From Styela clava (Eukaryota), in assembly GCF_964204865.1 (NCBI RefSeq), contig NC_135260.1, positions 10,044,001-10,108,000 on the forward strand: DNA of 64,000 bases, in the 5' to 3' direction. The translations under genes and the position numbers were made by a program. Below, piece after piece: positions 28,356 to 58,246 of the stretch. A model generated the notes under the pieces. The model did not search any database, was not told the DNA's origin, and worked only from the letters and a program-made list of their open reading frames with translations. Positions within the stretch are counted from its first letter, which is position 1, and the number at the start of each line of letters is the position of its first letter.

Positions 28356-28465
28356 GGTACTCGTGAAGTATGCGCACCAAGATGTCGCATAACCTGAACC
28401 CTAACCGGGTACACAACCTGAGTTCAGGTAGTGCGCCATCTTGGTGCACATACTTCAGGAGGTCC
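28356..28465. mobile_element. GG-terminal MITE, short form, perfect 8-bp TSD GAAATGAA
   Basis: 110-bp near-palindrome of the same family as 16175-16283; ends 113 bp upstream of the 28578 ATG. Confidence 0.88.
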
Positions 28466-28577
28466 GAAATGAATGCGTCTAATATGAACAGAATTGTAAC
28501 GTTTTTCTACGATATATTCCAAACTGGTATTTAGTCTAAACAGTGTTAGGATTTGATATAACTATCCAAATAACAGA

Positions 28578-31500
28578 ATGCAGATATTGCTATTGGTTTT
28601 CGTTGTTAGTTTATCGTGCTTGGCGTCAATATCAGAGGCTTCTCGTGGACTGTCTCTTCCTCACGGAATGGAACAAGGTATTTAAATTTTTATATTTTTT
28701 TAAAACAACAGTTTGTCCAAATATATTAAAATGCCATATTTGATTAAATAGTAATAGAAATTTAGAGTGGAATTTCAACTTGACTGTGCAGTGTAAATTT
28801 AAGTGTCTGATACCCTCCAAGATAAAATGGAACTCCCAGATAACGTTTATTACGTTGAAAACCGAATAATAATTAATTGACATATACTTTGATGTAAAAT
28901 TGTTAATTTAGCATAATCTACATAGGCATGAAAAGTATTCTGACAAAAAAAGTTGTAGGTATATGATAACTATTTTTGTACTATACTATTAAACCGCGCG
29001 GTGGGACACAAGAGCAAAATCACAGTGAAATCGAAATACCTAACATATTGGCAATGTTTTCCATTAGTATATTAGATTAAACTAAAGCCAAATCTATTTT
29101 CAAATTTTCAGAGGACTACTGTAAAGGATGCATTGAAACTGTTTCAGGTTATTATTTTTCTTGCTATGTACTTCAGTCGAATAGACAGACCTGAATGTTT
29201 TGATGAAGAGCTTTGCAACGAAAGCGATGCTCAAATATATGGACATGAAGGCCATGGCTGAATTAACTATTGGGGGCAAAATAAGCACGTTCGAAACTTA
29301 AAACATTCATCGACTGACGCATTTTAACAGTATTGGCCTTACGGTGAAATGCTATTCAAACGTTTAACGACTAACGTTTTTTAACAAGACGAAGAAGAAC
29401 AACAACATAATAACAAAACGATCCATATCTGAACTTCGTGTCCACTTATGCAAATCAATATTGTGCCAAATAAATATCACGTCTCATTTTGACCTCTGCC
29501 CTGAGCCACAGTTGCGTACAGATGTATTGTGTAATTAAGAAACATTTATTGCCATACCATTAATGTAATTTATTCAATCAACTTCAGCAATAGTCAAAAA
29601 ACAAAAGAATGGAATGAGTACGAAAAAAATTGTCAAAGGAATGGAAAAAATGTGTAATTCGATGAAGGAAGGAAACAACAAAACATCTTGCTTGCAGTTA
29701 GTTGGTGAGATTCTACAATAAATACTCGATCTTCATATGAAATCTACTCAAATAAATGAAAATAAAAAAAGTCACTCTGTGCATTCTTTCGTCGTAAATA
29801 TTATTATGTCAATAATAACTATAGATAAGGAACACTAATTGTAACAATTTATTTGTGAAACTATAGCAGAGAATGCGAAACTACTTACACTTGTGCGAAG
29901 ACTATAAATTGTCTGAATATAATTATAAAAATAAGTGATAGAATTATCCATCCATTTTCAAAGATACATAAATCTTCAAGATTATCTAAGAAAAATAGAT
30001 CCGCCTAGATATACGTTTTACAAAAAAGTTCAATTACTCATAAATTACAAATTTTCTTGTATCTATCGTAAGCTATACCTATTCTCAATAACTATATATA
30101 ATTCATTCAAACTGTATAGTGTATATTATAGTTTTAAATTGCACAAATAACAGACCATCACATCGACGATCTTGAGAGTGTCCTGGAACATCCAGAGAAA
30201 TCCAAGAAGTTGATTTCACATTTTTGCTTTGAACATTCATTTGCATGTACTGGGCTGAGAACTTATTCTTCCCAGGTAAGTCAGATAACGGGACATGGTG
30301 TTAGTTAAACTAAGTAGTCATTGTGTCAGTTGAATCAGGTCGCTACAAATTTGACGGGGAGTGTACACGTGGACTATTCTGCTGGATTGCCGAAGTGTTA
30401 ATTTTCGCATTTCTATCTAACCAAATTTTGTGAAGGTATTAGTCGCCAGAAGGCCAGACATTTCATTCAAAATTTTGCTGTTTTAAATTAATTCACAGGG
30501 CACTCCGTGTGCGTTGCTATCTTATAATAAACATCACCTGTAGACCTATATGGTATGCCTATTATTTTGCATTTGCAATCCGGTAGCTCGATACTAATGT
30601 TATTATTCGGTTACTATATATATATTCTAGTTTCTCTCCCTAATAAATCGTTAAGAATTGATTAAAATTATCCTGTAAACGTGTATGATATATAAAGAAA
30701 AATTAATTCAGAATAAGAGAGCAATGCCCAAATAGATGGATACGAAGACCAAAACGTAGTAGTATCAAATCTATTACAGTACCCGTAGTCTGACAGTAAC
30801 TAGATCACTGAGATGTGATCACGGAACCACGGCACGGTGCGCAAATTTTGATGACGTCATCGTACAAAACTTCAAAGTGAAATACGAATCCCATATAGAG
30901 CACATATTTTTTTGAAATATTTAAAAGTAATAGCCTTCAAGCGACAACAACAAGTTTTAAACACTGAGAATGTAAAAATAATTGGTCCAGCAGTTTAACG
31001 AAAATTAACAAACAATCCATAGGTTCATTTCGTGTCCACGTGTCCAACAAAGCGTTCAATTTTCGTATTCCGACCAATTGGAGACACGCACTCAAATATG
31101 TACTAAATTGGTTTTAATTCATTCTAATCGCCATTTTCGCTTTTGAAACATACCTAAACAACATAGTATAAACTTATTAGATCATGATGTTAAAACACAC
31201 ATATTAATTTACAATTTTATTGTAAATTTATTTACAATTTTAAATAAAAAATGCTTTAACTGCCCATATAACTTGATACATGACATCGAGTATAGGTAAG
31301 ACAATAGGAATGTAAATAAGAATTTTATATCAACAATTGAGAAGAACGTTTGAGAATTGAGCAGAATTATTACTATATCGTCACGCTAATAACCGAATTG
31401 CGTAAGTCACGATTTTGAGTTTTTTATAAAATAGGTATTTATGTAATGCTGCGCACCTGTCTGTTAACTCAGATTTTATTTTAAGAATTCTGAAACCCAT

Positions 31501-33268
31501 AAAAATGGAGATTTAGCATGACATGCACATTTGTGCAATTGTTTCGTCATAATGAATTATCATTGTTATCGCAGGACTATTGTGACGTCACAAAGGTAAA
31601 ATAACCTCGGCGAAGTATTTTCGAGTTTTTTCATCTTGGATTCTAGCTTAGCGCGTATTAATTTGAATTTATACTACAGTATAGGAAGACGTGCACTTGT
31701 GATATTCACTGTCTGAGTCCAATTCACCTTGGTTGGCTTTTATATTAGGTGCATTGCTGTTTTATTCTTTATATTTAATCTTAGTCTTATTTCGGAGGGT
31801 GTGCAGAACGTGTTATATTGATGAAATATATATTTTTACACATAAAAAATAATGTAATTGAAACTGATTAGCTAGCTATTTTGGAGATTACACATTGTAG
31901 ATACTGAGAATTACATTCGTTTTTGGAATGTTTAGTTTCCAGGACTGGTTCATATAGTGAGGTTGACAAATTGCGTATGTCCCCAAGTCATAGACACATT
32001 TCTGCCTAAGTCACAGTGCGCCATTATGACGTCACCTAACTGCGTCATACAAATCAACTTAAATCCGGCCACGATAAAAAATTTCCACCATGGCAAATTA
32101 TTGACTCTCAATGGCATATCAATATCATTAGGAAGTTTTTTACGTTATTCTCAAAACTGCTAAAAATGACTTACGCAATTCGGTTATTAGCGTGACGATA
32201 TTTTATATACGGTATCATACAGCCGGTGTTTCCTTCTTTCACGAAGAAGTACATCAATGGCATAAATAAATTGAACATACATTGTTAAAAGTTTACACAT
32301 GCATGTATAGGAAGGTATTTTTTGATGTTTCGACATTACCGTTCTAGTGAGATAATTGCTACGTGGAAGAATTCAAAAATGGTTTAATAAAACGATCATA
32401 TTGTTAATAATTTTGAGGGCCCGTGAATTTATCCATTCTACAAATGAATAAATTAGCGGTTTCGGATATGGAGATAAGTTTGCAACAATTATAAAAACTA
32501 GTTAAGAACATGGACACTCATCTTCAATGAAAAAGTAGTGCCTAGTCATAGTCCCATGCTGTACTTTGCACAGGATGAAATTTAAACTTAGTATCTGGAT
32601 AGATTTGACTTTAATGTATTATTTGATACTTTCAAGTAACACGATTAATAGGGATCACTTGCTCGAAAGCAAACGAATGAAACTGACTAATTCTCAATGA
32701 AATGTTTTCAAGATTTATCTAATCAAATTAACGATGTTTTTTTTTGTAATGGGAATAAAAAAAATGATTAGGTATCATGATTCTTCCGCATTGGTTGTGA
32801 TATCAATTTATGTTTCGGCATTCCAATTTACTGTCACGTATGCAAAATTGACATTCAATAGCCCAATTACGAGACTACTGACGAACCGGTAGTCAGCTGA
32901 TATATGCATAAGCTGTCGCAGTTGGGTGATTTTTGAAAAGTGATTTTTAGGGATCAAAATAGTGGCAATTGTGAAAATATCTGGATTTGGGACATTGGGT
33001 AATCTGCAAAAACGCAGTTCGGTCCTCTGTTTTCAGTGTGTACGTCAAGTTTTTATAGCGAACTTATATAAATATATAAAATCGTGCAAATATTCAATAT
33101 TTGAGATAGCATCTAGAATAAAAAAGATAAGAATGAATTTTCAGAATAAATGTTTCAAAATTTCAGATCAAACACGAGAAGAGCGAGGAAGAGCTTGAAA
33201 AGATTTTGGCAGATATGGAACCGATGAAACGGGTTCCAAATCCAGTTCGGAAGACAGATGAACTGTGA
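28578..33268 (+). CDS. Uncharacterised 107-aa signal-peptide protein with C-terminal TDEL (putative ER-luminal), 3 exons
   Basis: Exons 28578-28677, 30154-30275 and 33167-33268 total 324 nt, GT-AG, phases 1,0. Protein: MQILLLVFVVSLSCLASISEA-SRGLSLPHGMEQDHHIDDLESVLEHPEKSKKLISHFCFEHSFACTGLRTYSSQIKHEKSEEELEKILADMEPMKRVPNPVRKTDEL. Confidence 0.7.
30737..31038. mobile_element. TGGACACGAA-family MITE
   Basis: Runs TGGATACGAA...TTCGTGTCCA with internal similarity to 6683-6866. Confidence 0.6.
31378..32198. mobile_element. TA-flanked non-autonomous DNA transposon with perfect 32-bp TIRs
   Basis: TA|TCGTCACGCTAATAACCGAATTGCGTAAGTCA ... TGACTTACGCAATTCGGTTATTAGCGTGACGA|TA. Confidence 0.85.
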
Positions 33269-33370
33269 CGTAACCATGTTCATTCATTCACAATCGATCG
33301 AATTTTCCGTTCTTCTGTCCACTTCTGTTTGCTTCTTTTTATATACCTTTTCTAGTTTCGAAAATAATAA

Positions 33371-36300
33371 TCACCGACGTTCACATGTTTCCCCACAAAT
33401 TATGTTTATTATTCTATCTTTAAATTTTGATTCTCCTATTGTTTGAGCTCCACCTGGTATTTCAATGAGCTGAAAAATAATAATAAAAAAACATTCGTGA
33501 AACGATTTTTCAGATCTACTTGATTAAAAATTATTTGATATCTCTTTGTAAAGTATTCAACAGTTTTATGAATATACATATTTACTGTTTTATATATTTT
33601 CAAGAAGGAACCTATTTTTGCGACTAAGATTCATATTTGGGTAGTAATATGTGGCAGAGATACAGCATAGTTTGAAAGCTGTATCGACTACAAGATGAAC
33701 GAACAATTTCCCTTGTCAAAAAATCACAGCCATTACTACCGAGTTAATAATCTAATAATGCATTTTACCTCATTTTGGAGGAAGCATTGCCCTTGCGGCA
33801 ATATCAAATTATTTTGAATGGAGATTGAGATGAGAGATAGAAAATTTAGCTCTATCTGGCACTGAACTGGCTAAACTACTTGGATGTGATGATGTAGGCA
33901 TAAACCTATGCAACGTTTAACCGCAATAACCGGTATGTCAGGATAATTTCCTCGCTTTTACCGCTACAAGATTTATTACTCATATTTCAAATAGAGAAAC
34001 AGTCAGGATTTGAACGAGTTTCCAAATTAACAGTACTGATTGGATGAAAACTTGAAAATTGTATTAATTCAGTTCTATCAATTTGTACTAAGAAAGGCGG
34101 ATGACTGTTACGCAAACGTTGTTAGAAAAACAATACACATTAATTAAAAGGCGATTAGAAATTAGTCATTATAGTGACCAGTGGTATCAAAACCGTAAAT
34201 GGAGAACAATTCATCATCGGTCACCGAAAACTATATTTTTCAGATGTTTGGAAGACGATGAAGCGGCTTAAATATTTTCAATAAATTTGAATATTTCAAA
34301 TATTCTGACGATTATGGGATAGTTGCGTAACGCGTTTGAAAAAGTATTTTAGCTTTAGAAACCATGCAATCTCAGTATTGTAGTTAGTACTCAGTAACAG
34401 GGGATCGAAAAAAAAGCAAATATTTCAGGAATAGCCACGGTAATTGAATGGGGGTTTCTCTCATTCTGGTAATAGTTCATTTAAACATAAAATTGCTTTT
34501 TGGTACAAATTCAAATATGAAATTAGAGATGTATAAATATTCCACCTCTCAAGTGAATAAAACACGTGATCAATAAAAACTGACGACAGGGTCAATTTTT
34601 TAACATCAGATTAGGAATTCCAACAAAAAATTTGTTTATTTTTGTTATGCAAGTAATTCTTCCAGGACAAAAGATTCATTTTGAATATTTTCGGGTTAAA
34701 TATTCCATTCTGTTATTAGGTGAGATAGGTTATACGCGTAAAATTTCAAACACTTGTATAACGTCAAGAGATCGAAATCAAAATATCTCACCCGTTTTTT
34801 GAATCCAGCAGTTCCTCGTAACTGCTTCATATCAACATATGAACCGACACCAACTGTTACTACCTGCAAGGAACATCAAAACAAAATTGACGCTATCTTG
34901 AAAGTTTTTAGCATGAGTATAGTTAACAGCATACCAATGAAAAAAGTTAATGTGTCGTAAACAAGTAGGAGATTGATTCTGCGTTTGTAGCAACGCGCCT
35001 AATATTTAATCCCACGCACTTAATTTGCCTCTATTAGAGGTTAAACCCAATTTAAGTAAATTAATTTTTCGGTTTGGAAATTCTAATGAAGAACACTGTA
35101 GAAACAGAACTCATCTTTCTCGTTGTTGTACAAAGATTTTTGTTACGGGAGAGTTTGGGATTATCTTTTGTAAGCTGTTGTTTTCCCACATTGGTCATGA
35201 TAATTGTGGAAATGTTTAGTTGAAACTAAGTTCATCAGGTGCGCCCTTGAGTTGCGAAGTACATTTCGAGTTTCGATCAAAGCAACGTGACTACGATAAT
35301 TTATTAATTGCAATTATGTGAAGTCATTCGGAAGAGAGGCAGGCACGATCGTGAGTAGAGCCATGTGCACCACTGAAGCGACGAGTGTATTTATTTAATG
35401 ACAATAACAAATCGAAAGTCATAAATATTGACATTTCGAGTATTTGACAAGTAGAAGTGACCAAAAAAGCTTTGATCTAACGTTGAAAACATTGCTATTT
35501 CTTAGTTTCTAGGAAAGCTGTATAAACCTTCTTCTAACATAATAGACAGTACGAAGCAGAAGATAACTATAATTTATTCGTGGCTTTAAATTTACATATA
35601 ATATATATACTAACTCCTAAATCATCATTTATAATTCACGCAATGACTTCACAATAATATTCTGTGTGACCTATTTCTACCTAAGATTTGAAAAGTTTCT
35701 AGAAATGGCACTGGTGCACCGTGCATATGGGTTGCAAAAATGGGATTCGACAGACATGAATATAATAACTTTGATCGCTATTTACAATTTACATACATAA
35801 AATTGCCGTAAAATAAATTGGTGCATTTTATTATTCACTGAAATATTTTGGATAATATTTGTAAACTAACTTACATCTATACCATTGTCTCTTAACAGTT
35901 TAGCTGTTGTTTTTGGATCAAGTTTTTCTTTTAAAGGTGCTCCTGTCGTTAACATAACTAAAATATCTCTATACCTTCTTCTGTTTCCGTTACTTTTTAA
36001 AAATGAAACCCGATTCACGTGATCGAGAAGTTGTCCAATCCTCGTACCTGAAATGAGGACAAAAGATATTTTGAGCAACCCTCGCATTTTCCCTTCACTA
36101 CTTGATTTTGTTAAGTTAAAACTAGAAGAATACTATAAAACAGTGGTTCTCAAACTTTTTTCAAGCCGCGCCCTCTTTTTAGAATTTGTCAAGTCTCGTA
36201 TTCCACCTCAAAAATAACTAGCTAACAATAGGCTACAAATAACAGATAGTGAAGCGAAAGTATGTTTTATTCAAAAAACACGTTGAAAATATGTAGATGG

Positions 36301-39300
36301 AACGCATATAATGGAATAAATGAAAGGTTTTGAAATATCAATATTCAAAATAAGGCGGGCAAATCTAACAAATATTTTTATTTAGCTTTACGACCCCTCA
36401 AAAAATTGTCTACGCCTCTTTGTAGAGCGAGCCCCACCGTTTGAAAACCACCGCTATAGAATATATATATACATTAAATTTAAAATGCGGAAGACATAAT
36501 TGTTAAAAGCTCCATATACTTTAATATTACACAAACACACATACATCCTCATTTGACGTTTAAAAATCCGAAACCAACTATTGTTTTTAAATGTAGCCTA
36601 CTTAAATCATATTTTCTGCCAATGCATTGATGTGACACCAATTCGCCACGTTGATAAAGTTTTGCTATATAAAATAGCTAAGGACAAAAAAAAATTTTCA
36701 TATTGGAACTACTTACCGGTGAATATATTGGTTTTGCATTTATTACCCATTACAAAGACTCTTTGCTCAAAATAATGCGGTATTATTGTATATTATATTG
36801 CAATATATTTCCTTATTTTCAAAATGTGATTGGCTTAAATGTATATAGCTTTGAGGAGGTAACGAGTCATCGATTATTGAACACAATCCTGGCGAAAAAT
36901 ATAAATACATTTGTCAAAATTAATATTGTATGTATGTCTTTCTTGTTTTGACATTGTGATTTGGGTTATAAACAATGCGGTCGCATTTCGTAAGTACTAT
37001 ATATACCACAAGAAAGCATTCAACTTGGAATCTAAACTGACGTCAGAGCAATGTTTACAATGGAATTCAACGGAAAGAGTCATGTAGATTTGTAGGCCTA
37101 TTACCATTACGTTTATGACCGGAGGGTGTACAAGAGTAAACCGAGAGTGAATTTGACAAGCGGCGTTAACTTTTATCGCTTCAACTTTCAAGTCACGAAT
37201 TCCTTATTCATCAAGTGGAAATCAATTTACGACAATATTCAAGTGTTTACAAATTTTCAACACCTGGAGCATACTTTGGAATTTAATAAATTCCCGTTGG
37301 TGTGGAAGATCACTTACGGTGAAGCGTTTCAATTTTCCGAGTGGTACATGAATAGTATGGATAACAATTATTAACTGTGTTTTCTTTTTGCATACTGTAA
37401 TATTGTAACGTAACGTTATGTTCCACCCCAAGAACCTGGTCGCGAATGACAACAAGGAGTCACGTTACCGCAACTACAACTAGGGATTTGTTCAAAGAGA
37501 ATTGTCTAAAAACAATTGTTTGCGATGAAACCACGTTGCGAAAATTGAAATGCGATCGAATAAATGAGTTTGTATAACCTTGAAAAACTCACTTCAACCT
37601 TAAAAAACAAAGTATGCTGAGCATAAATTAACCGAACAGTATTAACCGTAACAATGACTTCATTTTATGAGAAAAATGTCAATACATGACCTCGAAATCC
37701 ATATTATGGCGTCATAAGTTATGACTCATAACAGATTAGTTGTGGCGTCTTTGCATCAGAGGACTCTTACAATTAACATAGGCTAGGTAAAGGTGTCTCA
37801 TCGTTCATATCAGTAGATTACCGCCGCTATAAGCATATTCTTCGTTATTGCAACCCACTCGTTTTGCAGAAGGGCTGCACTTGATCGAATTGCTTTTGTA
37901 GTAGCTTTTGTAGGTTCGTGAGCTAATTTTCATGATTTTTTTTACTCAAAACGTCTCTCTGATATCTCGGTTAAACATTTCGGGTAAAATCTTATGATTT
38001 TGGTGGAGATATAAAGTGGCGATATATGTACGCAATAGTGATAAAAGTCAAAATAAAAAATTTACTTACATTTTTGAAATTATAATTCCGGCTGCGTGTG
38101 CAGCTGCCAGAATGCAACGTTTTGGCGTAGTTTCGCGTCGATGCAAGGGGTATTTCAATAAAAAATTCAGAAAAAATTTGATTTAAAACAAGCCCTTGTT
38201 TTAAAACACGATATTTTTCTTAGAATTGATAAAAAACAAAACCCTAACTACAACGGTATTATAATATATATATTATCTTTTGAGATACTACGTTGCCACA
38301 TTTTTCAATTCAAATATCGGTGACTTCTAAACGAGTTTCTGAATATGCAACAGTGAAACCCAGAATACCGGTAATGTTATTGTGGTCACCAGACAACTTC
38401 GGATAGTTGGACATATAGTTCAAAAATGAACTACGTTGCCACATTTTCCAATTTAAATGACGGTGATCCTCAAACGAGATCCTGAATAGGCAACAGTGGA
38501 ACCCGGGGCTAACGGTAATGTTATCGCGGTCATCAGAAAATTTTGGATAGTTGGACAAAGTTTAAAAATGAGCCACAGTTTTCAATTTAAATATTAAACA
38601 TTAGGCAGCTCAAAACAGAGTAACCTGTTTGAGTAATTGTTTTTTATATATGATCATCATAATTACCAGAAATATCTATTACGTGATAAAGAGTTATCTT
38701 CACAGACGGTTGCTGTCGTTGATATTTAAAGTGACATTTGATACATCAGTATTCATTTCGCTTTGTCAACCTGTCGAGACTGTCTGCCCTTTATGTTAAA
38801 GGTGTTTCATAATATATATATTCGCATGCTTCAAACGCGACAATTGACAAGTTAATGAACTTTCTATTTGTAAACCTTTAACAGACTTTGGATCATGGAG
38901 GAGCCTGATTGTTCGTTTGTTACAGAAAAAAGCGCTTTGAATATAAGCGGAAACTACATCTTTATTATTTTAAATTTCATAGGTGATCAGGTTATCTCTC
39001 AATGTACTATTGTAATTCTATATGGCTCAGAGGTGAGTCTCTTTTAGCCCTGAATGAGTGTGTGTGAAGTTGTCTTGAGCAACTTCTTTCAAACTATATT
39101 TAGGGTAGGTATTGAACTGTACGTTACTTGTATGAATTTGATACTGATAATGCGCGAGCAAAACTTGATAGTAAAATTATCACAGAAAACCGATAATCGA
39201 TTACCAAAATTTAAAATTCCTAAACTGAAACGTATTATGCCTCTGGCATGTCCATTAATGGAAATTTACATATTTAGTGCAGTATGATCGGCACGTTTGA

Positions 39301-42300
39301 ACTAAATTCTAACGATGTGGTTGAGGTTGAGTAAACGATAGCGAGAAAAGTATCAACATTGGATGCATTTGGTAAGATTCAACCCGTCTGCCTAAAGGAA
39401 CACTGTGCACTGAATCACACTCTCGTCAGTATTTTTAGGCACCACCATTGGAAGTCTAATTTTGGACCAAGGTATATCAGAAAAAGAGAACCTACATCTT
39501 TCAATGTTTTTTGATTTTGATGCAAAATGACGCTTTAATGTCCGAAATTGCGTAAATTATGGAAATTTTGTGAGATGCATAATGGGTAATTGATTGACAA
39601 TCTTGCCCCCTAAGGCCCTCATTGTCGAGAAATATAGTGCAATTGGGATCTCTTGGTATTAAATTTGTTTTTTTCAATTTATAAAACTGCGTAAGGAACA
39701 ACTTTCATATCTAATGTTTCCCCTCTATTCACAAGTATTTAATGACTCATAATATTATTATCAATTTGCTTCAATCATTACTAAGATTTGTTCTCGCCTC
39801 GACTACAGTTCCATTAAATCTCTTTGTTTCTAAAACTGAAATCCAAGATCTTCAACATTGGATCTTATGACACCAGGCCAACTCCTATAACCTTTAACCA
39901 CAAATGAAAGTAAAATTATTGTTTCCAATCCAGGTAGGATTCGTACACTCAAATTCCCATCTTAAACAAAGATACCTCATTGTAGAATAAAGAATCTAAC
40001 CTCTCGTTGGACCAGGATGGCTTCTCAATGTATTGACAGCAGAAGCAAGTTGCATTGTTGAGTTGTAAGAATTCAAAAATATTTCACTATCCGCCCCAAC
40101 TTTTTCATTGTATGTCACAATTCCGATTCTGCTTTCTCTAGGTCCGACCAAAAATGTACTGAAATATAGTAACACCTAGAATCACTCATTTTCATATATA
40201 TTTATTATCATTGTTTCATACCTATCTGCGTTTACTGTATTTTCGGATTTTATATCGCTCCACGTCGTGAGTGCATGACTCCCATAAAGCATTACACTCT
40301 TTCGCTTTAAATACATTTCTAGATGAGAATATGGATAGCAAAAGGTTGCTACAATTTTAACGATATAAATATATATCATTAATACGATTTTAGAGACACT
40401 ACTGGTAGTCCTAGGTTCATTCATCATGTTTAAAATTCACCCAATAGACAATATAACGTTATCCAATTTCTCTCTATATAAGAACGTGACTGAACCCTGC
40501 CTTGGGAATCAAACATTCATTAAATCGATTTAACTAAGAGATCAAATATTTTTTTTCTGAAATTTATATTTTTCAAATTCACGGCAATTCTACACTCGGA
40601 CATAACCAAAATATGAATACAAAAATAAATACAGAAATTTATTTTTGTGAATAATGTTTTAGCCTGCATTGATATCATTCGTAATCGCTGCCACGCCATT
40701 ATTAACTACCAATATAAGAGATATAGACAAAATAATACCCCTACTTAGTTTCACATTTGAGGAAAAGATACCTCACTTACGTTATTAAATCTTTCAACAA
40801 TTCTTTTATTTTCTCCCAATTTTCCTCCGATTCTATCGATGAATCGACGGCAAATACAAGATCCATGTTTCCATGAGGAGGACATGGTTCTGAAAAAAAA
40901 AAACAAGAATCGTTTTCAAGTACTAGTTTAATCGCACAGTGTTGTCTGAATTTGTGATAAACACAGGATGAATCAATATGGAAAAATGATAGGTAAATAG
41001 AGAATGAACTGATTTAGTTTACTCATTGCAGCGCCATTCAACTACTCGTTTAAATTTGATACTAAATTACAATACTTACTGCTACAACACGGCATCTTAT
41101 CTGACCATGTTGCCTCCAGTTTATCCATTTCACAACGGAGCATTCCTGGCCCGTGTAAGTCGTGAAATTTTTTACATCGAAATCTGCAGTTTGAACCGGG
41201 ATTATTGTTTCTATCACACGAAACGACACCGTTTCTCAATCTGCGAATTTTTGGACACTTCGGTGAATTTTCTCGCAGTAATTTTGCGTCGGTCACTGTA
41301 AAAATATGCGAGATATATTTCAGTGATAACATTGATAAATAATTTAAGAACGATAACATCGTATATAAGTTCCTAGCGTACCAAAAATATGGTAAAATTG
41401 TGCATGAAGGTCACGAGTGTTGTGTAACACAAGCAAGTTTATACTTCATGGTCATTATTTAAATGGTGTGTTGTTGACGCTATAACACATTAATTCATGT
41501 AAAGTCTTGTTTGACGTGAAAGGATTCAATTTCATTCAAACAGTCAAATATAACAGTGTCAAATAAACTAAATAAGTTGGAATGTGAAGGTTTCTAAAAA
41601 TACAGGAAAAGGGATGACTATGGCACAAATGGGGACTTTATTTCAAAAAAAGTAAATACAAATATACAATAGGCTATCTATAATCATGAGTAGGGCTGGG
41701 CATTTTCGAATATCTGATGATTTCAGAATCGAATCGAATAATTTTTTCGAATTGAATCGAATCTCGAATACTTTGGAGATATAAAATTGTATGTAACTCT
41801 TCTATTGTGTTAGGTCCCCCAGACACATAAATTACTGAAAACATAGAATACATCACTCAGGCAGATTGCTGAGCGTTCACACACAATAAAAACACGTTTT
41901 CCTCAATAACTCACAACAGAAAAGAGTCATATGTCAGAATTGCGTTGAAAAAATATGACTTCAAGAAAAAAAAAATGAGAAATTTAGCTCGACCATTGGC
42001 GGGAAGAAAAAAACAAGATGGCGGCAATTCGAAATTTTGCCCCGAACCGATTCGAATAATTTCATATTCGATTCGAAATGCCCAGCCCTAATCATGAGTT
42101 ATTTCAACCATTCTGTAATTTGTTGTTTGAACATAAACTCTTAACATGTCTCTAAACAAAAAGTTACTGTATTCAACAGTTGGGTAATTTGAGACGAAAT
42201 CGTACGGCGTTTTACTGAAAACGTTATTTTTGACAGCATTCTAAATACATGTTTGCGAATAAAAACGAAAGCGTCACACAGTGGTAATCGAGATATGGAA

Positions 42301-45300
42301 CATATTACTTGATTTACCTCCTGTGCAGGTATCGCTGTCAAAATTGCATAAATCATCGATGCAACAACATCTACACACGGATTGATTTTTGAAATATCTG
42401 CATTGTGAATTATTTCTCTTCCTTTTGTTTTGTCTGAAATTATTTTGACAGGCTCTGGCTTGCTTGCAATTTTTCGTTATTTTTGTTATAGGTCCCCACG
42501 CGTAGTCAACACGCTCTGTAGTTTGACAAGCCGTCTGAAACAAAAGATACGTGAAAATGTGACATATATATTCCATGAAAATGTGACACATTGTTCGTGA
42601 CACGTGATCTGAGAACATTTTCACCAGTTGTTATTCAACGATACCTCGTATCTGTTATTCATTTTGTACTAGTTTGTTCAGCCGAAGCGGTAGAGCCCTC
42701 TGCGAAAATAATAACGTACGGATATAACAGTTGTGGGTAGTCATTGATGTATTAAGTAATATAAATAAGTATATCTCTTTGACAAAGATGTTAGTAGTTT
42801 GAAGTAGAAACAAGACTCAATACAAATAAATTACTGTAAAATGACCTATTTCCAATAGCTCAAATTTCAGAAATATAACACAAAAAGTCATTTTACGTCC
42901 GCCTATAAGAATTATTATGACTAAGAAATTTGTGCTCTTGATATAATGATAGACATATTCTTACCTTCGTTTTGGAGTTTTTTAATTACATGCTATTCAT
43001 ATTTCATTCAAATCAGAACTCAAGAGATATTTAATTTTAGTAAGTCCTAATTGCGACTGAACAAATGCACAACATCTAATTATATAAAAGGTGTGTAGTG
43101 GGAGTGGCCACATGTTCAAAGTGTTATCCAAGTGCACACAAACAAACCATTCAAACATTATATCATGTTTTCCGGTAAATAGATTTGAGATGATTATGGC
43201 ATGAAGCCAACTGTTTACAAATTGTAACCAACAATTGCTTGCGAGGCGTAAAGCTGATTTCTTAACGACATTAATTATGCTCTTTATTATTGACAACCTG
43301 AGGTAGGTCTAGGAGGAGAATTTGCAGATACTGTTCAGAATTAAATTCATAATGAGTTCGTACAAATCATTCGTCCAGATTATCATTGCAATGTACGCAT
43401 CAATGACAAATAGCACTATTCAGTGGAATGAATTGATTTTAACCGCTTGAACCCGGCAAGCCGGTTTACCGGCTTGTTTGAGTACGCTCTGTGCCCCGGC
43501 AAGCCGGTTTACCGGCTTGTTTTTCGTGTCGGAGGGAATCAACTTTATGATCTCGTATCTCAAGAACCACAATGAGTATTTGAATAAATTTAATATTGCA
43601 TGAAAGCTTGTTATTGGGACTAATTATATTGTGATGATCGGTGCTCTAATATACGATGTTTCAGTAAAATTGGCAATTTGAAAGTGCGTATGAAATTATT
43701 GTATGATAACAAATATTTAATATAAAGAATTTCGACTTCTTGCCTAAATAGCCACATATTCAATCGGCAATATATGTGGAGAATTTGAATAGCTTTTTAT
43801 ATACGTATCCAAAACGATTTTACGATGAGCCATTCAAATTTTATGACCAAATATATTAGATTATCTGTAGATTTAACAGCGACGCTGCGTCAAATTGATG
43901 TTCTCATTGAAGAGCGGCAACGTCTCGTCACGCACAACTTTACGCATATTACGCAAATGCAACTAAACGTGACGATATCCGCAATAACGTTACGTCGAGA
44001 TGTTATTATTTAAATGTCCGCAGGAAGTAATTAATTAACCCGATGCTACGCATTCAAAATTCGCACTACGATTTGACTTTGACTGCCTGCTCAAGCCCCA
44101 TTAAGTTGTGGTTACGTATACGCAATATGAACAAGATTGTGATTTTATTAGCGGATAACGGAACAATAAAGACCATGAAAAATGTATGTACATAAAAGAC
44201 TGCTTGCTAAAAATTTTAAATTGAATATTGCACTTCGTTGTGCCCGGAACAATGAAGAACATGAAAATATTAGGCAGACTAAATCCAATATTGCACTTTG
44301 TTGTGCCAGTTATACCAATGGTTGTTGGTTTCGTTACCTACACATAGGTACTCATTACAGTATTTGTACTTATATACTGTCTCGCATCGTTTCAGCAACG
44401 CTTTGTCTTTAGCAGCTGAATTGGTTTTTTGGCAATAATGTAAATTTTGCTGCATACGACGCATCTATTATTAGAACTGGCGTTTTGCGGTGGGGTATCT
44501 AGTTCTGGCGACGCATATGATCTTGTTGGAATAAGAGTTGCTCTTCCTGCATTATTAGTGCTCTCAGATATTATTCCATCCACTTGCTTCGCCTAACATT
44601 CGTAAAATCAGATATTTTGATCTGCAGAGCAGGCAAGTACTTATTTTGGTTGATATTTGAACAAATACTCATGGGCGAATAAAACATTTTCCACGTGAAA
44701 TTTTATATGACGATATTAACTTCACTTCGCTATTACTGCACGCATACTCGACGTCGGTACTTCAATCCATACAGGGTTAATATCATATCGAAACTCGGCG
44801 ACCGATGTTCCGCTGAGAACGTCGTCGTGAAAGTTATCTTGCGCATTTTGCCACGCAATACGTTTCGAACGTACTTATCAACATCTTCATGACGGTAGTC
44901 ACGTGATCGGCTTTTGCGTAGCTGCGTAATCAGTGCGTCATGGCCGCTTATCTATGTTGTTCACCCGACACAATGATACACAATTAAATATTTAAATATA
45001 AAATTGGTTATATGGCAGCCACAATAGTAATTCGAATATCAACAAAAAGCTTATAAAAAACTCTTCATGAACATCAAATATTGGCAGTATATTTTGTACC
45101 AAACTAACAAAATTTCAAGCCAAAACTCACATACATGCAGAAAAATGACTGTTAGATTAGGGTCAATTTTATTAATTTTGACAAAATGTATTTCAAAATG
45201 GAAAATACATTCTGAATGCACGATAAAATTTCCTTTCGATTGAAATGTCTCACAACGTGCTACCTATAATTGGTAGAAAGTTACAAGCGTGCCAAATAGC

Positions 45301-51306: not shown

Positions 51307-53882
51307 CAGGGCTAGGACTAACCATTGAGCAAAATGAGCACGTGCTTAGGGCACCGAGGTAGAAGAGGCACCACTGCAATTTCCATAGTTGAATTTCCAA
51401 TGGCGCTTCAGTGTTTAATGAAATAAGCCCACAGTTTGTCGATCACTGACATAGATCAACGGCTCTGGGTGTGTGAGCCATAAAATTGGATCGTAACATG
51501 GACATTTCGGTCAAAACCACCTTTATTGTAATTTCGAAGTAAAATTAGTTGTAAGGTGAATGTATTTATCCTGATGGTGGTATGATGGCAAGCGATATAA
51601 CTGTCCTCAGAGCGGTGGATACTCCGTACCGTAATTTATGTCGGATCATCTAAATTTCCACTATCCGTTCAAAAGGGGTCATTCTGGGTGTAAAGATAAT
51701 TTTCAATTATTGTCTAAATACCTGAAGAATCGGGACCCTTCTTTAATCTGCAAAATTGTCAAGAACTCTAATATTTGTATTCAATCTGCCAGAAAAATCA
51801 TTACGGAAGATAACAACAAAGAAGGATCAATACCAGACACCTGCTGATGCAAAGTTATAGCTTAAATAGCCTCAATGGCTAATTAGCCTCGATTCATTAA
51901 AATGTGTGTGAATATTGAAGTAAATTGTCCCTAATCGAGCATTTTTACCAAAAAACTAAGTTGTCAACGGTAGACATTTTGATATTGTGTGTAATATTTT
52001 GTACTTTTTATGGGCGCTTTTGTCGCAAATCATTAACTAGTGATGCATGCCTTGTCGTTCTTGCATGCATTTGTGCAAACATTGTCTGTCATTAAAACTG
52101 AACGTGCGATAGGTTTGTGCCGGAAGCAATTTTGATATCACCAGACACATTTTGTCAAGAAACAATCGATGTAGTCGTTCTAAAACTAAAGAAAATGTCT
52201 CAGAAGCTCTCCAGTGTCATTGTAACTACAAGGAAAGTTACAAATGAAGAGACAGGTATTGACTTGCACGTATATGAAGAACGGAAAAACTTTGCTTCTA
52301 AACGAACAATCAGGGCGACTGTTTATAATATAATTGTTGTGAGTAACTTACAGACACTTAATGCAAAAGCAGGCGAAACAGTGCAGTATACAATCGACAA
52401 ATCTCATGATGATTGCGAGAAGTTACATAAGAATTTATCAAAAAAATTTCCTGGAACGTTGATCCCAGAGATGCCAAGTAAACCTATCCGCATGATGGAT
52501 ACAGCAGAAAAGGCGAAAACAAGGAAATCTCAAGTCGGCAACTTTTTATCCTTTTGTGCGAAGACGCCAAAAATAAGCAAGTCAGAAGTAGTATTAAAAT
52601 TTCTCGGCGTTGAAAATGTAAAACTAGATGGCAAAAGTGAAGATGACGAGCCTAGCGAAAGTCAGGAATCACCAACTCCAGTGATGTCCAAACCAAACGT
52701 TGACTTGTTTACTCCGGCCATTGATTCATCTCATGAAATATTTTCGGAAGAAATAGAAAACCAGCAAGAAGAAGAAGGCGAAGAGGAGATCGATTACACA
52801 CCACATAATTTGAAAAAAAGCAAAAATAAAACAGAAGAAATATCTTCATCCGGGCGCGAGGTGAAGTTATTCGACGATAAAGATACCGATACACCAATGA
52901 TTGAAAATGCTGTCGTAGCTCAAAAAATAAATGAGGTTACGACAGAACAGGAAGTGGAAGATGGATTATTCGATTATGCAGATAGTGACGAGGATTTAGA
53001 CGAGTTACTTCGCAAATTAGAAAACACAAAAAATACGCGACAAGCAAGAGAAAAGGATATTGCGGAAAAAAGAAAGGCTGCACAAAACTCAAATATCAAA
53101 ACGGCTGTAGAGCCAGAAGCGGGAGATTTTGATGTCAACGATATTTCTAAATACATATCAGAAAACGTTGTGAACATGAACGACCTTAACCTCGGTTTGT
53201 AACATCAATAAAAAAGATTTGGCGGTAAAGTGAAACCGTGTTTATATACTATATAGCAGTGCAATATTGAGATGCTTATATTGATTTATGTTTTAACTAT
53301 ATATATTCTATTGCAATATTTCGCTAGTGTTTGAACTAACATTTCATCCAATCGATAAAACAGACATTTCCAAACTACCATTTTGTGAATATTTCCTAAT
53401 AAAATAATAGCAAACATTTGTCAGTTTTTGTTCAGTTACTGATGTCGCCAAGAATTATGTATTGGCAAATTTTTTCCATTTGTTAATGTTTTGCAGCCAT
53501 TCTGGGGACGCACGCAGTAAACGCAGGCGGGTTTTATAATCATCTCTGCTTTTTTCTACCACAACCTTTCTTAGAATCTCGCAAAACAACGGGAACGAAA
53601 AAATGTTTACAACAATGCCTGCATATCTGTCTGAGCGATTGAATAAATTACAATAGTTTCGTCATTGTTAACTCGTTGCTGATTTGTCATTGTTAAGGAA
53701 ATAAACAAAGAAATTGATTCTGTGAAAACATCCTTTGTACTGAAAATCATTCAATTTCAGATAATATGAAACACAAGTTTATCATTATTTTTTACAATTA
53801 GGACACCAAAGTCTAAAGTGCTTAGGTCCTGTACTGTACTGCCCATCTCCATTAGGTCACGAAATCTTATGTCATGTCCTTG
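51307..53882 (+). mobile_element. Decayed hAT (Tip100/ZMYM1-DUF4371-type) transposon relic enclosing HS1BP3
   Basis: Left end CAGGGGCTAGGACTAA..GTGCTTAGGGCACC. 5' transposase remnant PFKRGHSGCKDNFQLLSKYLKNRDPSL (ORF 51638-51847). 3' dimerisation-like remnants MFTTMPAYLSERLNKL (from 53603) and ADLSLL (from 53678). Right end GGACACCAAA..GTGCTTAGG..GTCCTTG. No TSD. Confidence 0.5.
52195..53202 (+). CDS. HS1BP3: HCLS1-binding protein 3 homolog (PX domain), intronless, 335 aa from the first ATG
   Basis: TGIDLHV..VYNIIVVSNL..VQYTIDK..L.KKFPGTLIPEMP..R..FL..KSEVVLKFLG matches the HS1BP3-type PX domain. Acidic tail with LF motifs and C-terminal DVNDISKYI. The GTG start at 52117 in the track is unlikely. 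Confidence 0.85.
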   Translation: MSQKLSSVIVTTRKVTNEETGIDLHVYEERKNFASKRTIRATVYNIIVVSNLQTLNAKAGETVQYTIDKSHDDCEKLHKNLSKKFPGTLIPEMPSKPIRMMDTAEKAKTRKSQVGNFLSFCAKTPKISKSEVVLKFLGVENVKLDGKSEDDEPSESQESPTPVMSKPNVDLFTPAIDSSHEIFSEEIENQQEEEGEEEIDYTPHNLKKSKNKTEEISSSGREVKLFDDKDTDTPMIENAVVAQKINEVTTEQEVEDGLFDYADSDEDLDELLRKLENTKNTRQAREKDIAEKRKAAQNSNIKTAVEPEAGDFDVNDISKYISENVVNMNDLNLGL

Positions 53883-54433: not shown

Positions 54434-56476
54434 TCATAGCCCGATGGTATAAGATCTACCATTTGGGTTGTGTATTTGACTTGCTTGTGGAGAAGTGACA
54501 CACCATTCATACCAAACCTTTTTTCCATTGGAACAACGCCAAAAATCAGTCTGTAATGTACAACCTTCGGTAAGAGGGATTGGATTCATCAAGGGAACGA
54601 AAATTGGAAACCAACTGAACATTCCCGGTGAATGTGTTTTCGGTTCGATACTGATTTCAACATCTTTGTACAATGCGCATCTGAAATAACCACCAAATCC
54701 ATGCAGCATAGTGTCAAAAGGAATTGTGCAAGAAAATTGTTGATATCTTGTGTTGTGACTATTTGTTGGCATTGTCGGAGTTGATTTGATTTGATTGTTA
54801 GCTTTAGTTGGATCAATGTGATTGTGTTGACTATCTTGAATCTGATTAACTTCAGTTTTCCCATTCGTTTCCATGTCCTCTTTATCCTTTACATCTTTTT
54901 TGCTGAACTTCTTGTCCCAAACTTCTGCGGAAACGTCGGCATGGAACTCTGGTTTAGGATTTTGACTATCCAAATCCCAGTTTGGATGATTGAATGTGAA
55001 CAACGGAACTGGTTCAGTAAGTTCATGATAATTATGAATACGAACCACATACAAAGTTTCAAAAGCAGCTTCGGGTGTCTTATTTTTATCCAGACCCATC
55101 ACACCTTTTATCTCATTGTAAAGTTTATGAGATGAGATAGGAGATATGTAAGATGTGTATGACTGCGGGATACTGACTGCATCTGGTTTTAGGAAGCGAT
55201 TTGCCCCGTCTAAGCACTCCGGTGACAATTCATTGTCACCCAATGATCCTAGCAACTCTGAAACAACAATATCAGCTAGCTCAGGAGCCTTCCAAAACCT
55301 CATATCAGATGAAACTACAGTGACATCATAGTCTTTCCACTCTGTCGTGCACAGATGTTGCAAAAGTACAGCAGCATTTCTGTTTTTTTCTACTGCATAA
55401 AGACGAACTTTTCTTTGAGCTCTTTTAGCACCTCTGAGTGACATTCTAACGAGAGGGCCGCGACCCGCACCAAGCACCATGATAACAGCTGTTTGCTGTT
55501 CTTTTGCGGAATCAGGAATTTGGTCAAGCAAGCAACGATAAACTGCTTCCTCATACTTTTTATATTTGATAGGATCTCTTTCAAAGATTTCATAGGTTGA
55601 CGATTCCAAATTATCCATGAGAGGCTGGAGTGGTGCTTGCAAATGATCTTCATAACCTTTTGAAAATTTTTCATATTCTCCTAGATTTTGAGCACCTTGG
55701 AATAAATGATCCAAGTATTGATGATACACTAGGATTCCTTCTGCATTATTCAAGTTAGGACCAGACAATACAATTTGACAATTCAACTTCATGAGATTTT
55801 TAACAAATTGCTGATGAGCACGGGACAAAACAGGAAATCCTTTTTGATTCATCAGAAAAACAGAAGTTGGAATATAAACCACACGAATAGGTTCACCTTG
55901 CCATCTTTCCAACTGACTCGGTAAGTCTGCAGTTAATTCCAATGCTAATCCGATTCTACTGTGATGGCTGCATAAGGTTCGAAATTTATTCCACCAGTGC
56001 CATGTATCCTCCTCACAATTTCTGGAGTGTAAAGGGACTTTAACCCATATGTGGACATTATGATGACCTTCATATAAAAAGGTGTTTATCATTCTGGCAA
56101 TATTTGAACAATTTTTGCTCTTGATTTCAACAATAATCGCAGGTAAGCTCAAAAAAGCAACAAAATGAAGCTCTTGTTTCACAGCTTCTTCCGCACAAAT
56201 ACGCTTCTCTGTTACAACAGATGTCAAATCAGGAAAATAAGAAAGTTTGCCAACGACAAGGGAAGCCCATTCTTGTGAATTGAATAAAAATGATGTGTCT
56301 GTAACACCACCAAGTTTATTACATAGATTCGCTGTTTCAAATGGTGTGCAGCCTTGTCTGACAACATTCGCACATATAAAGTCATAGCCATTTCTACTAG
56401 AATTCTCAATAGATTCTTCAAGATCTTCAGTAAATTCAATATCTAGTCCGCAAGATACACGGTTTCTTGAGGCCAT
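54434..56476 (-). CDS. PRMT5: Protein arginine N-methyltransferase 5, intronless, 680 aa
   Basis: TIM-barrel N-terminus, PLQPLMDNLES.TYEIFERDPIKY, VLGAGRGP, double-E loop SELLGSLGDNELSPECL, MFSWFP and C-terminal SYTIGL. Confidence 0.98.
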   Translation of the reverse strand: MASRNRVSCGLDIEFTEDLEESIENSSRNGYDFICANVVRQGCTPFETANLCNKLGGVTDTSFLFNSQEWASLVVGKLSYFPDLTSVVTEKRICAEEAVKQELHFVAFLSLPAIIVEIKSKNCSNIARMINTFLYEGHHNVHIWVKVPLHSRNCEEDTWHWWNKFRTLCSHHSRIGLALELTADLPSQLERWQGEPIRVVYIPTSVFLMNQKGFPVLSRAHQQFVKNLMKLNCQIVLSGPNLNNAEGILVYHQYLDHLFQGAQNLGEYEKFSKGYEDHLQAPLQPLMDNLESSTYEIFERDPIKYKKYEEAVYRCLLDQIPDSAKEQQTAVIMVLGAGRGPLVRMSLRGAKRAQRKVRLYAVEKNRNAAVLLQHLCTTEWKDYDVTVVSSDMRFWKAPELADIVVSELLGSLGDNELSPECLDGANRFLKPDAVSIPQSYTSYISPISSHKLYNEIKGVMGLDKNKTPEAAFETLYVVRIHNYHELTEPVPLFTFNHPNWDLDSQNPKPEFHADVSAEVWDKKFSKKDVKDKEDMETNGKTEVNQIQDSQHNHIDPTKANNQIKSTPTMPTNSHNTRYQQFSCTIPFDTMLHGFGGYFRCALYKDVEISIEPKTHSPGMFSWFPIFVPLMNPIPLTEGCTLQTDFWRCSNGKKVWYEWCVTSPQASQIHNPNGRSYTIGL

Positions 56477-58246
56477 CTTAGGTTATAGTAAGCTATAATT
56501 TTAAGTAGTTATATTATTGATTTTGGTCCTAAAATTTAAATAGTAAAGCACACTTTTACCAAATCTCTAAAAACTTGTTTTTTCTTTAATGCCAACGACT
56601 ACCAAACACATATATGGTCACACAGGATTAAAAATGATGAAACATGACTACCAGTATGTTTTGTTCAGTTTTCAACGGCATAAAAGGATGATTTACATAA
56701 GGTTAAGGAGGACTCCAGAGTAGATACGATCAAAATTATTAAAATATTTTTTTGTACCGTTTCAATTTGAGGCATGATACTGACATATAAACAATTATCC
56801 GCAACAATTATACACTTTGAAAAAATAATCTAATTCGCTGATTGAAAAAAATTTTACCGAAGCATTTGAGTTTTTAGCTGAAAAACATAATTTTGGTCAC
56901 CAGACGTCCAAGTCATGATTGATTTAAATTATTACCGAGAGAATCTTGGCGTGATGTAACTGTTTTAGAGCCAAAAGGGAGTGCTTGTTATATTGAACCA
57001 AATGTTGGGACATCTTGGAATCGAAGAACTGTGCCCTAATGATGACTGGATGGTATAAAAGTAAAGTCGAATCATGTGAAATTTCAGATATTTAAATACT
57101 GATTGAATCGAAAGACCAGAAAAGGCAGCAAGAACAATAGCAGAATAGACTATGTGTGTGTCATAAGATAAATTGTTATAATGTTTTCTTATTCCTGTAT
57201 TCTGTTTAAAATGAAGTCTGAAGGAAGGCTACGATGACATTTATGCCAAAATAATTCGCACACTTTCCACACACAGACACACATGTAGGCTACGGTAGCT
57301 AACTTGTTTCTAATTCTCATATTTAATATATCAGTAGAAATTTGAAGTCAGGAGTTCATTAATTATAAACTAACGTGGAATCATACTACCATAGCATCCA
57401 TAAATGCGTATTACATTGTTTGTCTAATAAAAAAAAAGAAAAGAATGCGGATCGAGCAGGGCGGGAACTAATCCTTATGGATGTTTGGAATTATACTACA
57501 GTACCATAGTCAAAAGGTTTTGAACAATAATTTACAAGCAAGTTGCCAAGATTAAACCCTCACACAGATCGAGACTATTACATGCTTCCAGTTAGCAAAT
57601 CAACATGAAGTAAATACAAACATAAACTCCACCCCACCTGCTATCAAAGAAAATATCCCCGCATGCACCAGCAAAGTGCACAATCCACATGCTACTAGTG
57701 CGGTGGTGTATGGAGTGGAAATCTAGAGTCCGAACGTAATTCGATTTAAGTACACCTGCATATATGAAATTTACGTATATGCCTTTATGTGGTGATTACC
57801 ACCGTAATATAAGTAAATTCAAGTTTGAATGGAATAGCTAAATCTTAACACATAATGTCTTATTTTCCTTATTATTTTCCAATTCTTACAAAATTATTAA
57901 CATGGTGTGGCAAATTATTTTTTTTTAATTTGTTTGTATATTATTCTTTTTATTAGGTAATATCTTTTATGTTTCAATTTTTATTTTAAACCTTAGGATT
58001 TACATCCTGAAGGATCCTATTTTAAACCTTACTTAAGTTTTTTTTGCTCTCCTGATTCTGTAATCAGTTTTATTTACTTAGTTTTTATCAACAATTTTAT
58101 TGTCTATTGTGCTGATCATGGAATCGAAATAAACTATTCCACGTAATAGTCTACGACTACGGTATGTGTAAATGTTAGTTCTTCATGCGTTTATATTCTC
58201 ATTTTTGAGGAAATTGCAGTTGATTTTATTCAGCGATCCCGTCGGG

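What the first reader, a model, noticed from the sequence alone, without database searches (positions are those of the whole stretch)
28578..33268. Orphan 107-aa secretory-pathway microprotein ending in KTDEL
Seen: three exons, none called in frame by the ORF track, join into a signal peptide, a His/acidic segment, one C-x6-C loop (CFEHSFAC), an amphipathic acidic helix and RKTDEL-stop. Known: xDEL termini are KDEL-receptor retrieval signals. I cannot assign a family. Hypothesis (a): a minimal ER chaperone or cofactor. There is a weak resemblance of CTGLRTYSSQI...ELEKILADM to MANF/CDNF CELKYDKQI...ELKKILDDW, but it lacks most of the saposin domain and the CxxC. Hypothesis (b): a peptide precursor with a cyclic peptide after KK (KK-LISHFCFEHSFACTG-LR; also KR and RK sites), with the same ring size as allatostatin-C/CCHamide.
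Basis: partly seen in the sequence, partly recalled or inferred. Interest (0 to 1): 0.72.

Follow-up and report, generated by a model that had tools for sequence, protein, structure and literature searches.

The report
Compact ER-retained saposin, Canopy-related family
The supposed 107-residue orphan is a mis-spliced reading of a five-exon sea-squirt gene for a 158-residue saposin-type protein; it belongs to an unnamed family found from jellyfish to frogs that likely stays in the endoplasmic reticulum and likely helps other proteins fold, as its Canopy relatives do.

Summary
Transcript contigs join five exons. The product is 158 aa and identical to a RefSeq 'uncharacterized' Styela clava protein. 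The missed exons add a CxxC and two more cysteines, completing a six-cysteine saposin domain; sequence and fold searches rank saposins first. The 'C-x6-C loop' is the end of that domain, not a cyclic peptide; its KK site occurs in 1 of 15 aligned rows. Fourteen relatives (tunicate, fish, frog, jellyfish, unnamed) keep the hydrophobic N-terminus, six cysteines and an xDEL/xEEL/xSEL end. Cysteine spacing is hybrid: saposin-short loops, Canopy-type C-terminal half. The genome has separate CNPY2-like, CNPY3/4-like, MANF and prosaposin-like genes. Best reading: an unnamed, insertion-free Canopy-related subfamily, likely an ER folding helper; lipid chaperone is the main rival. Function is untested. 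Side finding: the mRNA carries a trans-spliced leader.

The parts
28542..28543 (+). AG acceptor where a 24-nt leader is joined (trans-splice site); mature mRNA body starts at 28544
   Evidence: X9 contig has a 22-nt loose 5' end here; same leader sits before a GT donor in a tandem array elsewhere in the genome
28544..28577 (+). 5' UTR, no ATG, in-frame TGA upstream of the start
   Evidence: read by hand; contigs cover from 28542-28545
28578..28677 (+). Exon 1 coding: predicted signal peptide (about residues 1-21) and conserved LPxGxxQ lead-in; phase-1 donor
29112..29147 (+).
   Evidence: joints in 6 of 6 RNA-like runs
29588..29704 (+).
30154..30275 (+). Exon 4: end of helix 3, helix 4, C109-x6-C116 (30225-30248)
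33167..33268 (+). Exon 5 coding: acidic tail helix (residues 132-142, 33185-33217), PxP, KTDEL (33251-33265), TGA
33269..33487 (+). 3' UTR with AATAAA at 33482
   Evidence: contigs end at 33453-33487

Best explanation
This five-exon gene encodes a 158-residue protein with a hydrophobic N-terminus, a complete six-cysteine saposin-type domain, an acidic tail helix and a KTDEL end; it is predicted to be a soluble ER-lumen resident and likely works as a Canopy-type helper for folding or export of secretory clients. Steps: (1) five-exon, leader-capped mRNA: shown. (2) Signal-peptide entry into the ER: predicted from hydrophobicity. (3) Four-helix saposin fold: predicted with high local confidence; disulfides C37-C116, C40-C109, C68-C80 are inferred from the family pattern. 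(4) Retrieval by a KDEL receptor: inferred from family-wide xDEL-type ends. (5) Function: inferred. The most conserved residues (27-44 and 109-118) would be tied together by two disulfides into one patch, which would be the site that binds a chaperone such as GRP94/BiP or a client, with the tail helix as a second contact in chordates. Identity (steps 1-3) about 0.95; ER residence about 0.8; the confidence given is for the whole mechanism.
For: Splicing. Identity with RefSeq XP_039273089.2. Saposin: best solved-structure sequence hits are saposin C (E 0.005 single, 2e-6 profile); model pLDDT about 90 over residues 31-90; the top five structural matches are all saposin-like (Na-SLP-1 Z 10.3, rmsd 2.8, 89 aligned; NK-lysin 9.1; saposin D 8.9; granulysin 7.2; AOAH 6.5), pERp1/MZB1 Z 6.4, rmsd 2.8, 87 aligned. 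Family: six Cys invariant in 15 of 15 rows; ends KDEL 11, TDEL 2, KEEL 1, KSEL 1; no transmembrane-like stretch after C1. Canopy kinship: C5-x6-C6 in 14 of 14 tabulated, the motif PMC6566547 gives for CNPY1/2/5; family profile of the C4-C6 half scores the genome's CNPY2-like models 25.3/23.7 bits and CNPY3/4-like 16.8, against at most 8.2 for 22 of 22 ordinary saposin repeats and at most 0.3 for 3 own prosaposin-like exons; helix-1 profile 16.8 against at most 9.8. Atlas neighbours of the frog and fish members are 170-185-aa clusters with 11-12% DUF3456 members (0.90-0.94; leads only). Canopy proteins act with GRP94/BiP on clients (PMC6566547, PMC13037941).
Against: No functional or localisation data for any member. 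It lacks the long inter-helix insertions of Canopy proteins (C2-C3 21-32 and C3-C4 10-20 residues against 51-54 and 47-61), and PMC6566547 suggests that CNPY functions differ through the regions outside the helices. Whole-domain matches rank lipid-binding saposins above pERp1, and the profile of the six short members scores a saposin repeat (30.1) above CNPY2-like (20.9). The core tree groups family plus CNPY2 with only 41% support and does not recover the family as one clade. 0 of 4 intron positions are shared with the two Canopy genes. DUF3456 scores 11.1 bits against a cut-off of 21.1. TDEL does not match the Prosite ER motif quoted in PMC2140024. No Foldseek hit reaches E 0.001, and Z under 13 can be generic for helical bundles (note). 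The Canopy gene models are my own, without RNA check.
Confidence: 0.45

Rival explanations
1. ER/Golgi lipid chaperone: the bare saposin core opens and holds the acyl tails of ceramide or another lipid, presenting it to ER enzymes or limiting its flux, as reported for CNPY4.
For: Loop lengths equal those of lipid-handling saposins (2,27,11 against 2,27,10); closest structures are saposins and AOAH; helix 57-69 is strongly amphipathic (moment 0.65); CNPY4 binds ceramide and sphingomyelin (bioRxiv 10.1101/2025.10.13.682155, Discussion).
Against: Helical cores score closer to CNPY2 than to saposins; conservation is concentrated in one disulfide-linked end, more typical of a protein-binding site (inference). 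Not exclusive with the best explanation.
Confidence: 0.3
2. Leaky-retained or secreted saposin-like effector (NK-lysin/amoebapore type) or lysosomal cofactor; the tail only delays export.
For: NK-lysin Z 9.1 and granulysin Z 7.2; TDEL is outside the Prosite motif (PMC2140024); domain net charge +3.
Against: 11 of 15 rows end in exact KDEL; domain net charge runs from +4 to -7 across 14 members, unlike cationic lytic saposins (recalled); single copy in the genome searches.
Confidence: 0.1
3. MANF/CDNF-like BiP regulator.
For: Same superfamily fold followed by a helical tail and an ER signal (CDNF Z 6.1, ARMET Z 4.6).
Against: The genome has its own MANF; no SAP domain or second CxxC; tail profile against MANF C-terminus equals shuffles (230 of 500); profile comparison probability 6.5%.
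Confidence: 0.05
4. One reading: a minor exon-2/3-skipped isoform that yields a cyclic peptide.
For: Skipping both exons keeps the frame.
Against: No such joint among the rows shown for six RNA-like runs; KK in 1 of 15 rows; xDEL end argues against dense-core granule sorting (established knowledge).
Confidence: 0.02

Closest known systems
Canopy family CNPY1-4 and CNPY5/MZB1/pERp1 (Pfam DUF3456, PF11938)
   Same: Signal peptide, single six-Cys saposin-like domain, C5-x6-C6 as in CNPY1/2/5, C4-C5 gap 26-28, KDEL-type end; best half-domain profile scores; pERp1 fold match.
   Different: No long insertions between helices; 158 aa against 182-278 aa (PMC6566547); below the Pfam cut-off; no shared intron; the genome has its own CNPY2-like and CNPY3/4-like genes; family-specific LPxGxxQ lead-in and AC-x-G end.
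Saposins A-D / prosaposin (SapB_1 PF05184, SapB_2 PF03489)
   Same: Compact loops, best whole-domain sequence and Foldseek hits, N-glycosylation sequon in the domain (query only; 2 of 14 tabulated have one inside the domain).
   Different: Single domain with ER-retrieval tail rather than a multi-domain lysosomal precursor; C4-C5 26-28 and C5-C6 6 against 21-24 and 5; phase-1 introns against phase-0.
NK-lysin, granulysin, amoebapore, hookworm Na-SLP-1
   Same: Single compact saposin fold.
   Different: ER-retrieval tail; not consistently cationic.
MANF/CDNF (ARMET)
   Same: Saposin-like fold, ER signal at the C-terminus.
   Different: No SAP domain; separate gene in this genome.

Membership tests
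SAPLIP superfamily | Six conserved cysteines beginning with CxxC | tested here: met
   C37, 40, 68, 80, 109, 116; invariant in 15 of 15 rows
SAPLIP superfamily | Four/five-helix saposin fold | tested here: met
   Predicted model; top five structural matches are saposin-like; Foldseek probability 0.99 but E 0.19-0.3
SAPLIP superfamily | Disulfides C1-C6, C2-C5, C3-C4 | not testable with these tools
SAPLIP superfamily | Pfam SapB_1/SapB_2 over cut-off | tested here: not met
   SapB_1 13.4 bits against 25.2; SapB_2 not listed; closest relative 19.5
Canopy (CNPY1-5) | N-terminal signal sequence | tested here: met
   Hydrophobicity only, no SignalP: best 11-residue mean 3.05 in the query, 1.92-3.49 in 15 rows
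Canopy (CNPY1-5) | C-terminal KDEL-type signal | tested here: met
   TDEL in the query (non-Prosite, like PDEL of CNPY3); KDEL in 11 of 15 rows
Canopy (CNPY1-5) | C5-x6-C6 (CNPY1/2/5) or x11 (CNPY3/4) | tested here: met
   x6 in 14 of 14 tabulated
Canopy (CNPY1-5) | Long insertions between the saposin helices | tested here: not met
   Gaps 27 and 11 against 51-54 and 47-61 in the genome's Canopy models
Canopy (CNPY1-5) | DUF3456 over cut-off | tested here: not met
   11.1 against 21.1 bits; relatives 17.0 and 19.7
Canopy (CNPY1-5) | One clade with CNPY genes | tested here: inconclusive
   41% support on 61 columns, CNPY3/4 model left out for lack of C1; 0 of 4 introns shared
Canopy (CNPY1-5) | ER location and action with GRP94/BiP on clients | not testable with these tools
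   Needs experiment
Prosaposin | Tandem saposin repeats with C4-x24-C5-x5-C6 | tested here: not met
   Single domain, x28 and x6; RNA contigs span the whole ORF
MANF/CDNF | C-terminal SAP domain with CxxC (ARMET_C) | tested here: not met
   No Cys after residue 116; no ARMET family; PF10208 maps to another contig
Neuropeptide precursor (allatostatin-C/CCHamide type) | Conserved dibasic sites flanking a two-Cys ring | tested here: not met
   KK before the ring in 1 of 15 rows; ring cysteines belong to the saposin set

The most novel reading that the evidence does not exclude
An undescribed, ancient sixth branch of ER-resident saposin-like proteins, kept from cnidarians to amphibians, that has the Canopy core without any Canopy insertions and so bridges lysosomal saposins and Canopy co-chaperones; it would be the minimal system for testing whether Canopy proteins work through lipid binding or through protein binding.
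Probability: 0.4. Interest if true: 0.62.

Novelty: new variant of a known kind. Interest (0 to 1): 0.4.

Why it matters
The orphan-microprotein and cyclic-peptide claims fall. What remains is a conserved, unnamed ER protein family that Pfam misses and that reaches fish and frogs. [quoted passage not shown] The gene itself is already annotated correctly in RefSeq, and two relatives carry an automatic 'Saposin B-type domain' label, so the novelty is the family and its position, not the gene.

Tried and rejected
Pfam on four single exons: nothing meaningful. SICA_beta (E 0.0012, under cut-off): treated as helical/Cys chance. Word-indexed searches with an exon and with the full protein returned only the protein itself. 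Of 11 hits I dropped P0009 (low-complexity repeat), kept P0004/P0005/P0012 only as multi-domain saposin comparators, and left P0007 (N-truncated isoform of P0014) out of alignment A2; P0006 and P0013 are the same species. Paralogue at C2:13.42 Mb (E 4, stop inside): rejected. The family profile found only one of the five own exons, so 'single copy' is weakly tested. Homology of the chordate tail helix with the C-terminal helix of the long members: 0 of 8 clearly beat shuffles (best 21 of 200): not shown. Homodimer prediction: no verdict (score 0.00, alignment not used). Core tree: unresolved. The look-up of sequencing runs: no holder on record as RNA. Rfam: no match to the leader array. Literature: no paper with the gene id, none for 'saposin B-type domain' + KDEL, no listed paper with CNPY6 or the frog/Clavelina gene ids, none for spliced leader + Styela or TDEL + KDEL receptor; searches listed no title on this family. 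The library is open-access only and supplements were not read. Earlier scan findings: none by sequence or by family words.
Full report
1. Observation. I laid 7 of the 13 listed runs. In X9, X8 and X5 one contig of 724-729 nt joins all four introns (434, 440, 449, 2891 nt, all GT..AG). X7 and X1 show the first three, X4 the first two. The DNA-like run X10 covers every bin and has none of these joints. The runs are only guessed to be RNA, but their contigs are spliced and their depth is zero in most non-repetitive intron bins. No exon-1-to-exon-4 joint is among the rows shown; some rows were hidden and contigs lose rare forms. The five-exon product is 158 aa and equals XP_039273089.2, 'uncharacterized protein LOC120347244' of Styela clava, letter for letter.

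2. Both ends of the mRNA. The X9 contig has 22 extra letters before the AG at 28542-28543. That 22-mer has 345 exact copies in the genome against 0 for the reversed control. A 17-mer form ending in GT has 148 copies, most of those listed in an array on C8. Four units there are 1634 bp apart, each with a TATA-like box, the 24-nt leader, a GTAAGT donor and a T-rich Sm-like site (the Sm label is recalled). This is the anatomy of spliced-leader genes; trans-splicing in an ascidian is described in PMC3074122 (passages seen). The joint is seen in one contig only. The UTR has an in-frame stop and no ATG (read by hand), so the ORF is 5'-complete. Contigs end near the AATAAA at 33482.

3. The protein. 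After a hydrophobic N-terminus come C37, C40, C68, C80, C109 and C116 (gaps 2, 27, 11, 28, 6), an acidic helix and KTDEL. No Pfam family passes its cut-off; SapB_1 and DUF3456 appear weakly. Solved-structure sequence search puts saposin C first. The AlphaFold model has mean pLDDT 76, about 90 over residues 31-90 and about 55 in the tail. Foldseek ranks saposins A and C first without reaching E 0.001. The wider search ranks Na-SLP-1, NK-lysin, saposin D, granulysin and AOAH first, with pERp1 seventh and CDNF eighth; a chaperonin at Z 6.5 shows the background level. Of six coding differences that I translated, five change signal-peptide residues and one in the domain is silent; that table was truncated, and one difference in the DNA run (30186) would change residue 96 (read by hand).

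4. The family. An exhaustive search gave 11 hits: the protein itself, six single-domain relatives, three multi-domain saposins and one repeat. A profile search added seven. Named members are Clavelina lepadiformis, Lithobates pipiens, Alosa alosa and the jellyfish Sanderia malayensis; the rest are unnamed. In 15 aligned rows the six cysteines, A115 and the final EL are invariant, and G30, Y36, G118 nearly so. There are a short form (156-164 aa, tail helix plus PxP) and a long form (240-260 aa, charged tail). The grouping is not circular: a profile from the eight long members scores the six short ones 33.5-49.6 bits, a profile from the six short ones scores the long ones 54.7-66.2, and a profile without the query or its closest relative scores the query 55.9. 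The margin over CNPY2-like is small for the first of these (31.3 summed over split pieces).

5. Place among known families. The genome holds separate CNPY2-like (C3), CNPY3/4-like (C9), MANF (C10) and prosaposin-like (C14) genes. My splice models give the Canopy genes 47-61-residue insertions that this family lacks, while the C4-C5 and C5-C6 gaps match CNPY2 and not saposins. With the insertions ignored, helix 1 and the C4-C6 half score CNPY2-like well above all ordinary saposin repeats tried. Against simple Canopy membership: no shared intron (Canopy introns fall inside the CxxC, just before C4 and between C5 and C6; here before C1, after C2, after C4 and after C6), sub-cut-off DUF3456, and an unresolved tree. 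It is a saposin-like protein that looks and probably works like a Canopy but fails two defining Canopy tests, so I do not file it as a CNPY. Atlas clusters of similar size from arthropods, molluscs, chordates and ciliates hint at a wider range; untested. Trypanosomes have pERp1-like ER proteins labelled by BiP proximity (bioRxiv 10.64898/2026.04.03.716285, passages seen); their relation to this family is unknown.

6. Mechanism. Shown: gene structure, expression as a spliced transcript, conserved anatomy. Predicted: signal peptide and fold. Inferred: ER retrieval, supported by KDEL in 11 of 15 rows; TDEL itself is outside the Prosite motif and its measured efficiency was in a figure I could not see (PMC2140024, passages seen). 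Inferred: function. Characterised Canopy proteins assist folding or export of clients with GRP94/BiP (PMC6566547; PMC13037941, passages seen), and conservation here clusters at the disulfide-linked end of the domain, so I put a Canopy-type helper first (0.45). A lipid chaperone is second (0.3), since the core has saposin dimensions and CNPY4 binds ceramide (bioRxiv 10.1101/2025.10.13.682155, passages and Discussion seen). The two may coexist.

7. Verdict. The orphan 107-aa microprotein and the cyclic-peptide idea are artefacts of missed exons. The real gene is already annotated but unnamed, and it marks a conserved, apparently undescribed compact variant of ER saposin-like proteins. My searches of an open-access library showed no paper on it; subscription papers and supplements were not seen. 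New variant of a known kind; interest 0.40.

Noticed in passing
G000:C1 loci L042/L043, L045/L046, L047/L048; many same-strand pairs 5-6.5 kb apart genome-wide: The host spliced leader sits inside about 720-750-bp direct repeats that look like the LTRs of a retrotransposon family (integrase-like and gag-like frames by eye, no domain scan). In L042/L043 the leader is followed by nine extra bases ending in AG that L045-L048 lack, as if it was captured at two alternative trans-splice acceptors. Observation only.
   Followed up: partly
G000:C8 about 4.23-4.57 Mb (L049): Tandem array of candidate spliced-leader RNA genes, 1634-bp unit, no Rfam match at E 0.1.
   Followed up: partly
L014 (G000:C3:237000-246500, minus strand): The CNPY2-like gene has two paralogous middle segments (one exon against a pair of exons); both give in-frame products of 179 and 193 aa ending KDEL, so they may be mutually exclusive exons. 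No RNA check.
   Followed up: partly
G000:C14:10.717-10.792 Mb: All 16 SapB_1 matches of the genome search lie in one prosaposin-like cluster about 640 kb from this gene on the same contig; may be chance.
   Followed up: partly
window 31375-32201 and 28360-28461: Inverted-repeat elements (49-nt arms 729 nt apart in intron 4; 40-nt arms upstream of the acceptor), both repeated widely in contigs; likely small transposons.
   Followed up: no
window 54434-56482 (-), 52102-53202 (+), 35875-42630 (-), 58525-58821 (+): Neighbours: single-frame PRMT5, a PX-domain protein, a VWA/sushi-domain gene facing this one, and a hAT transposase remnant. No functional link seen.
   Followed up: no
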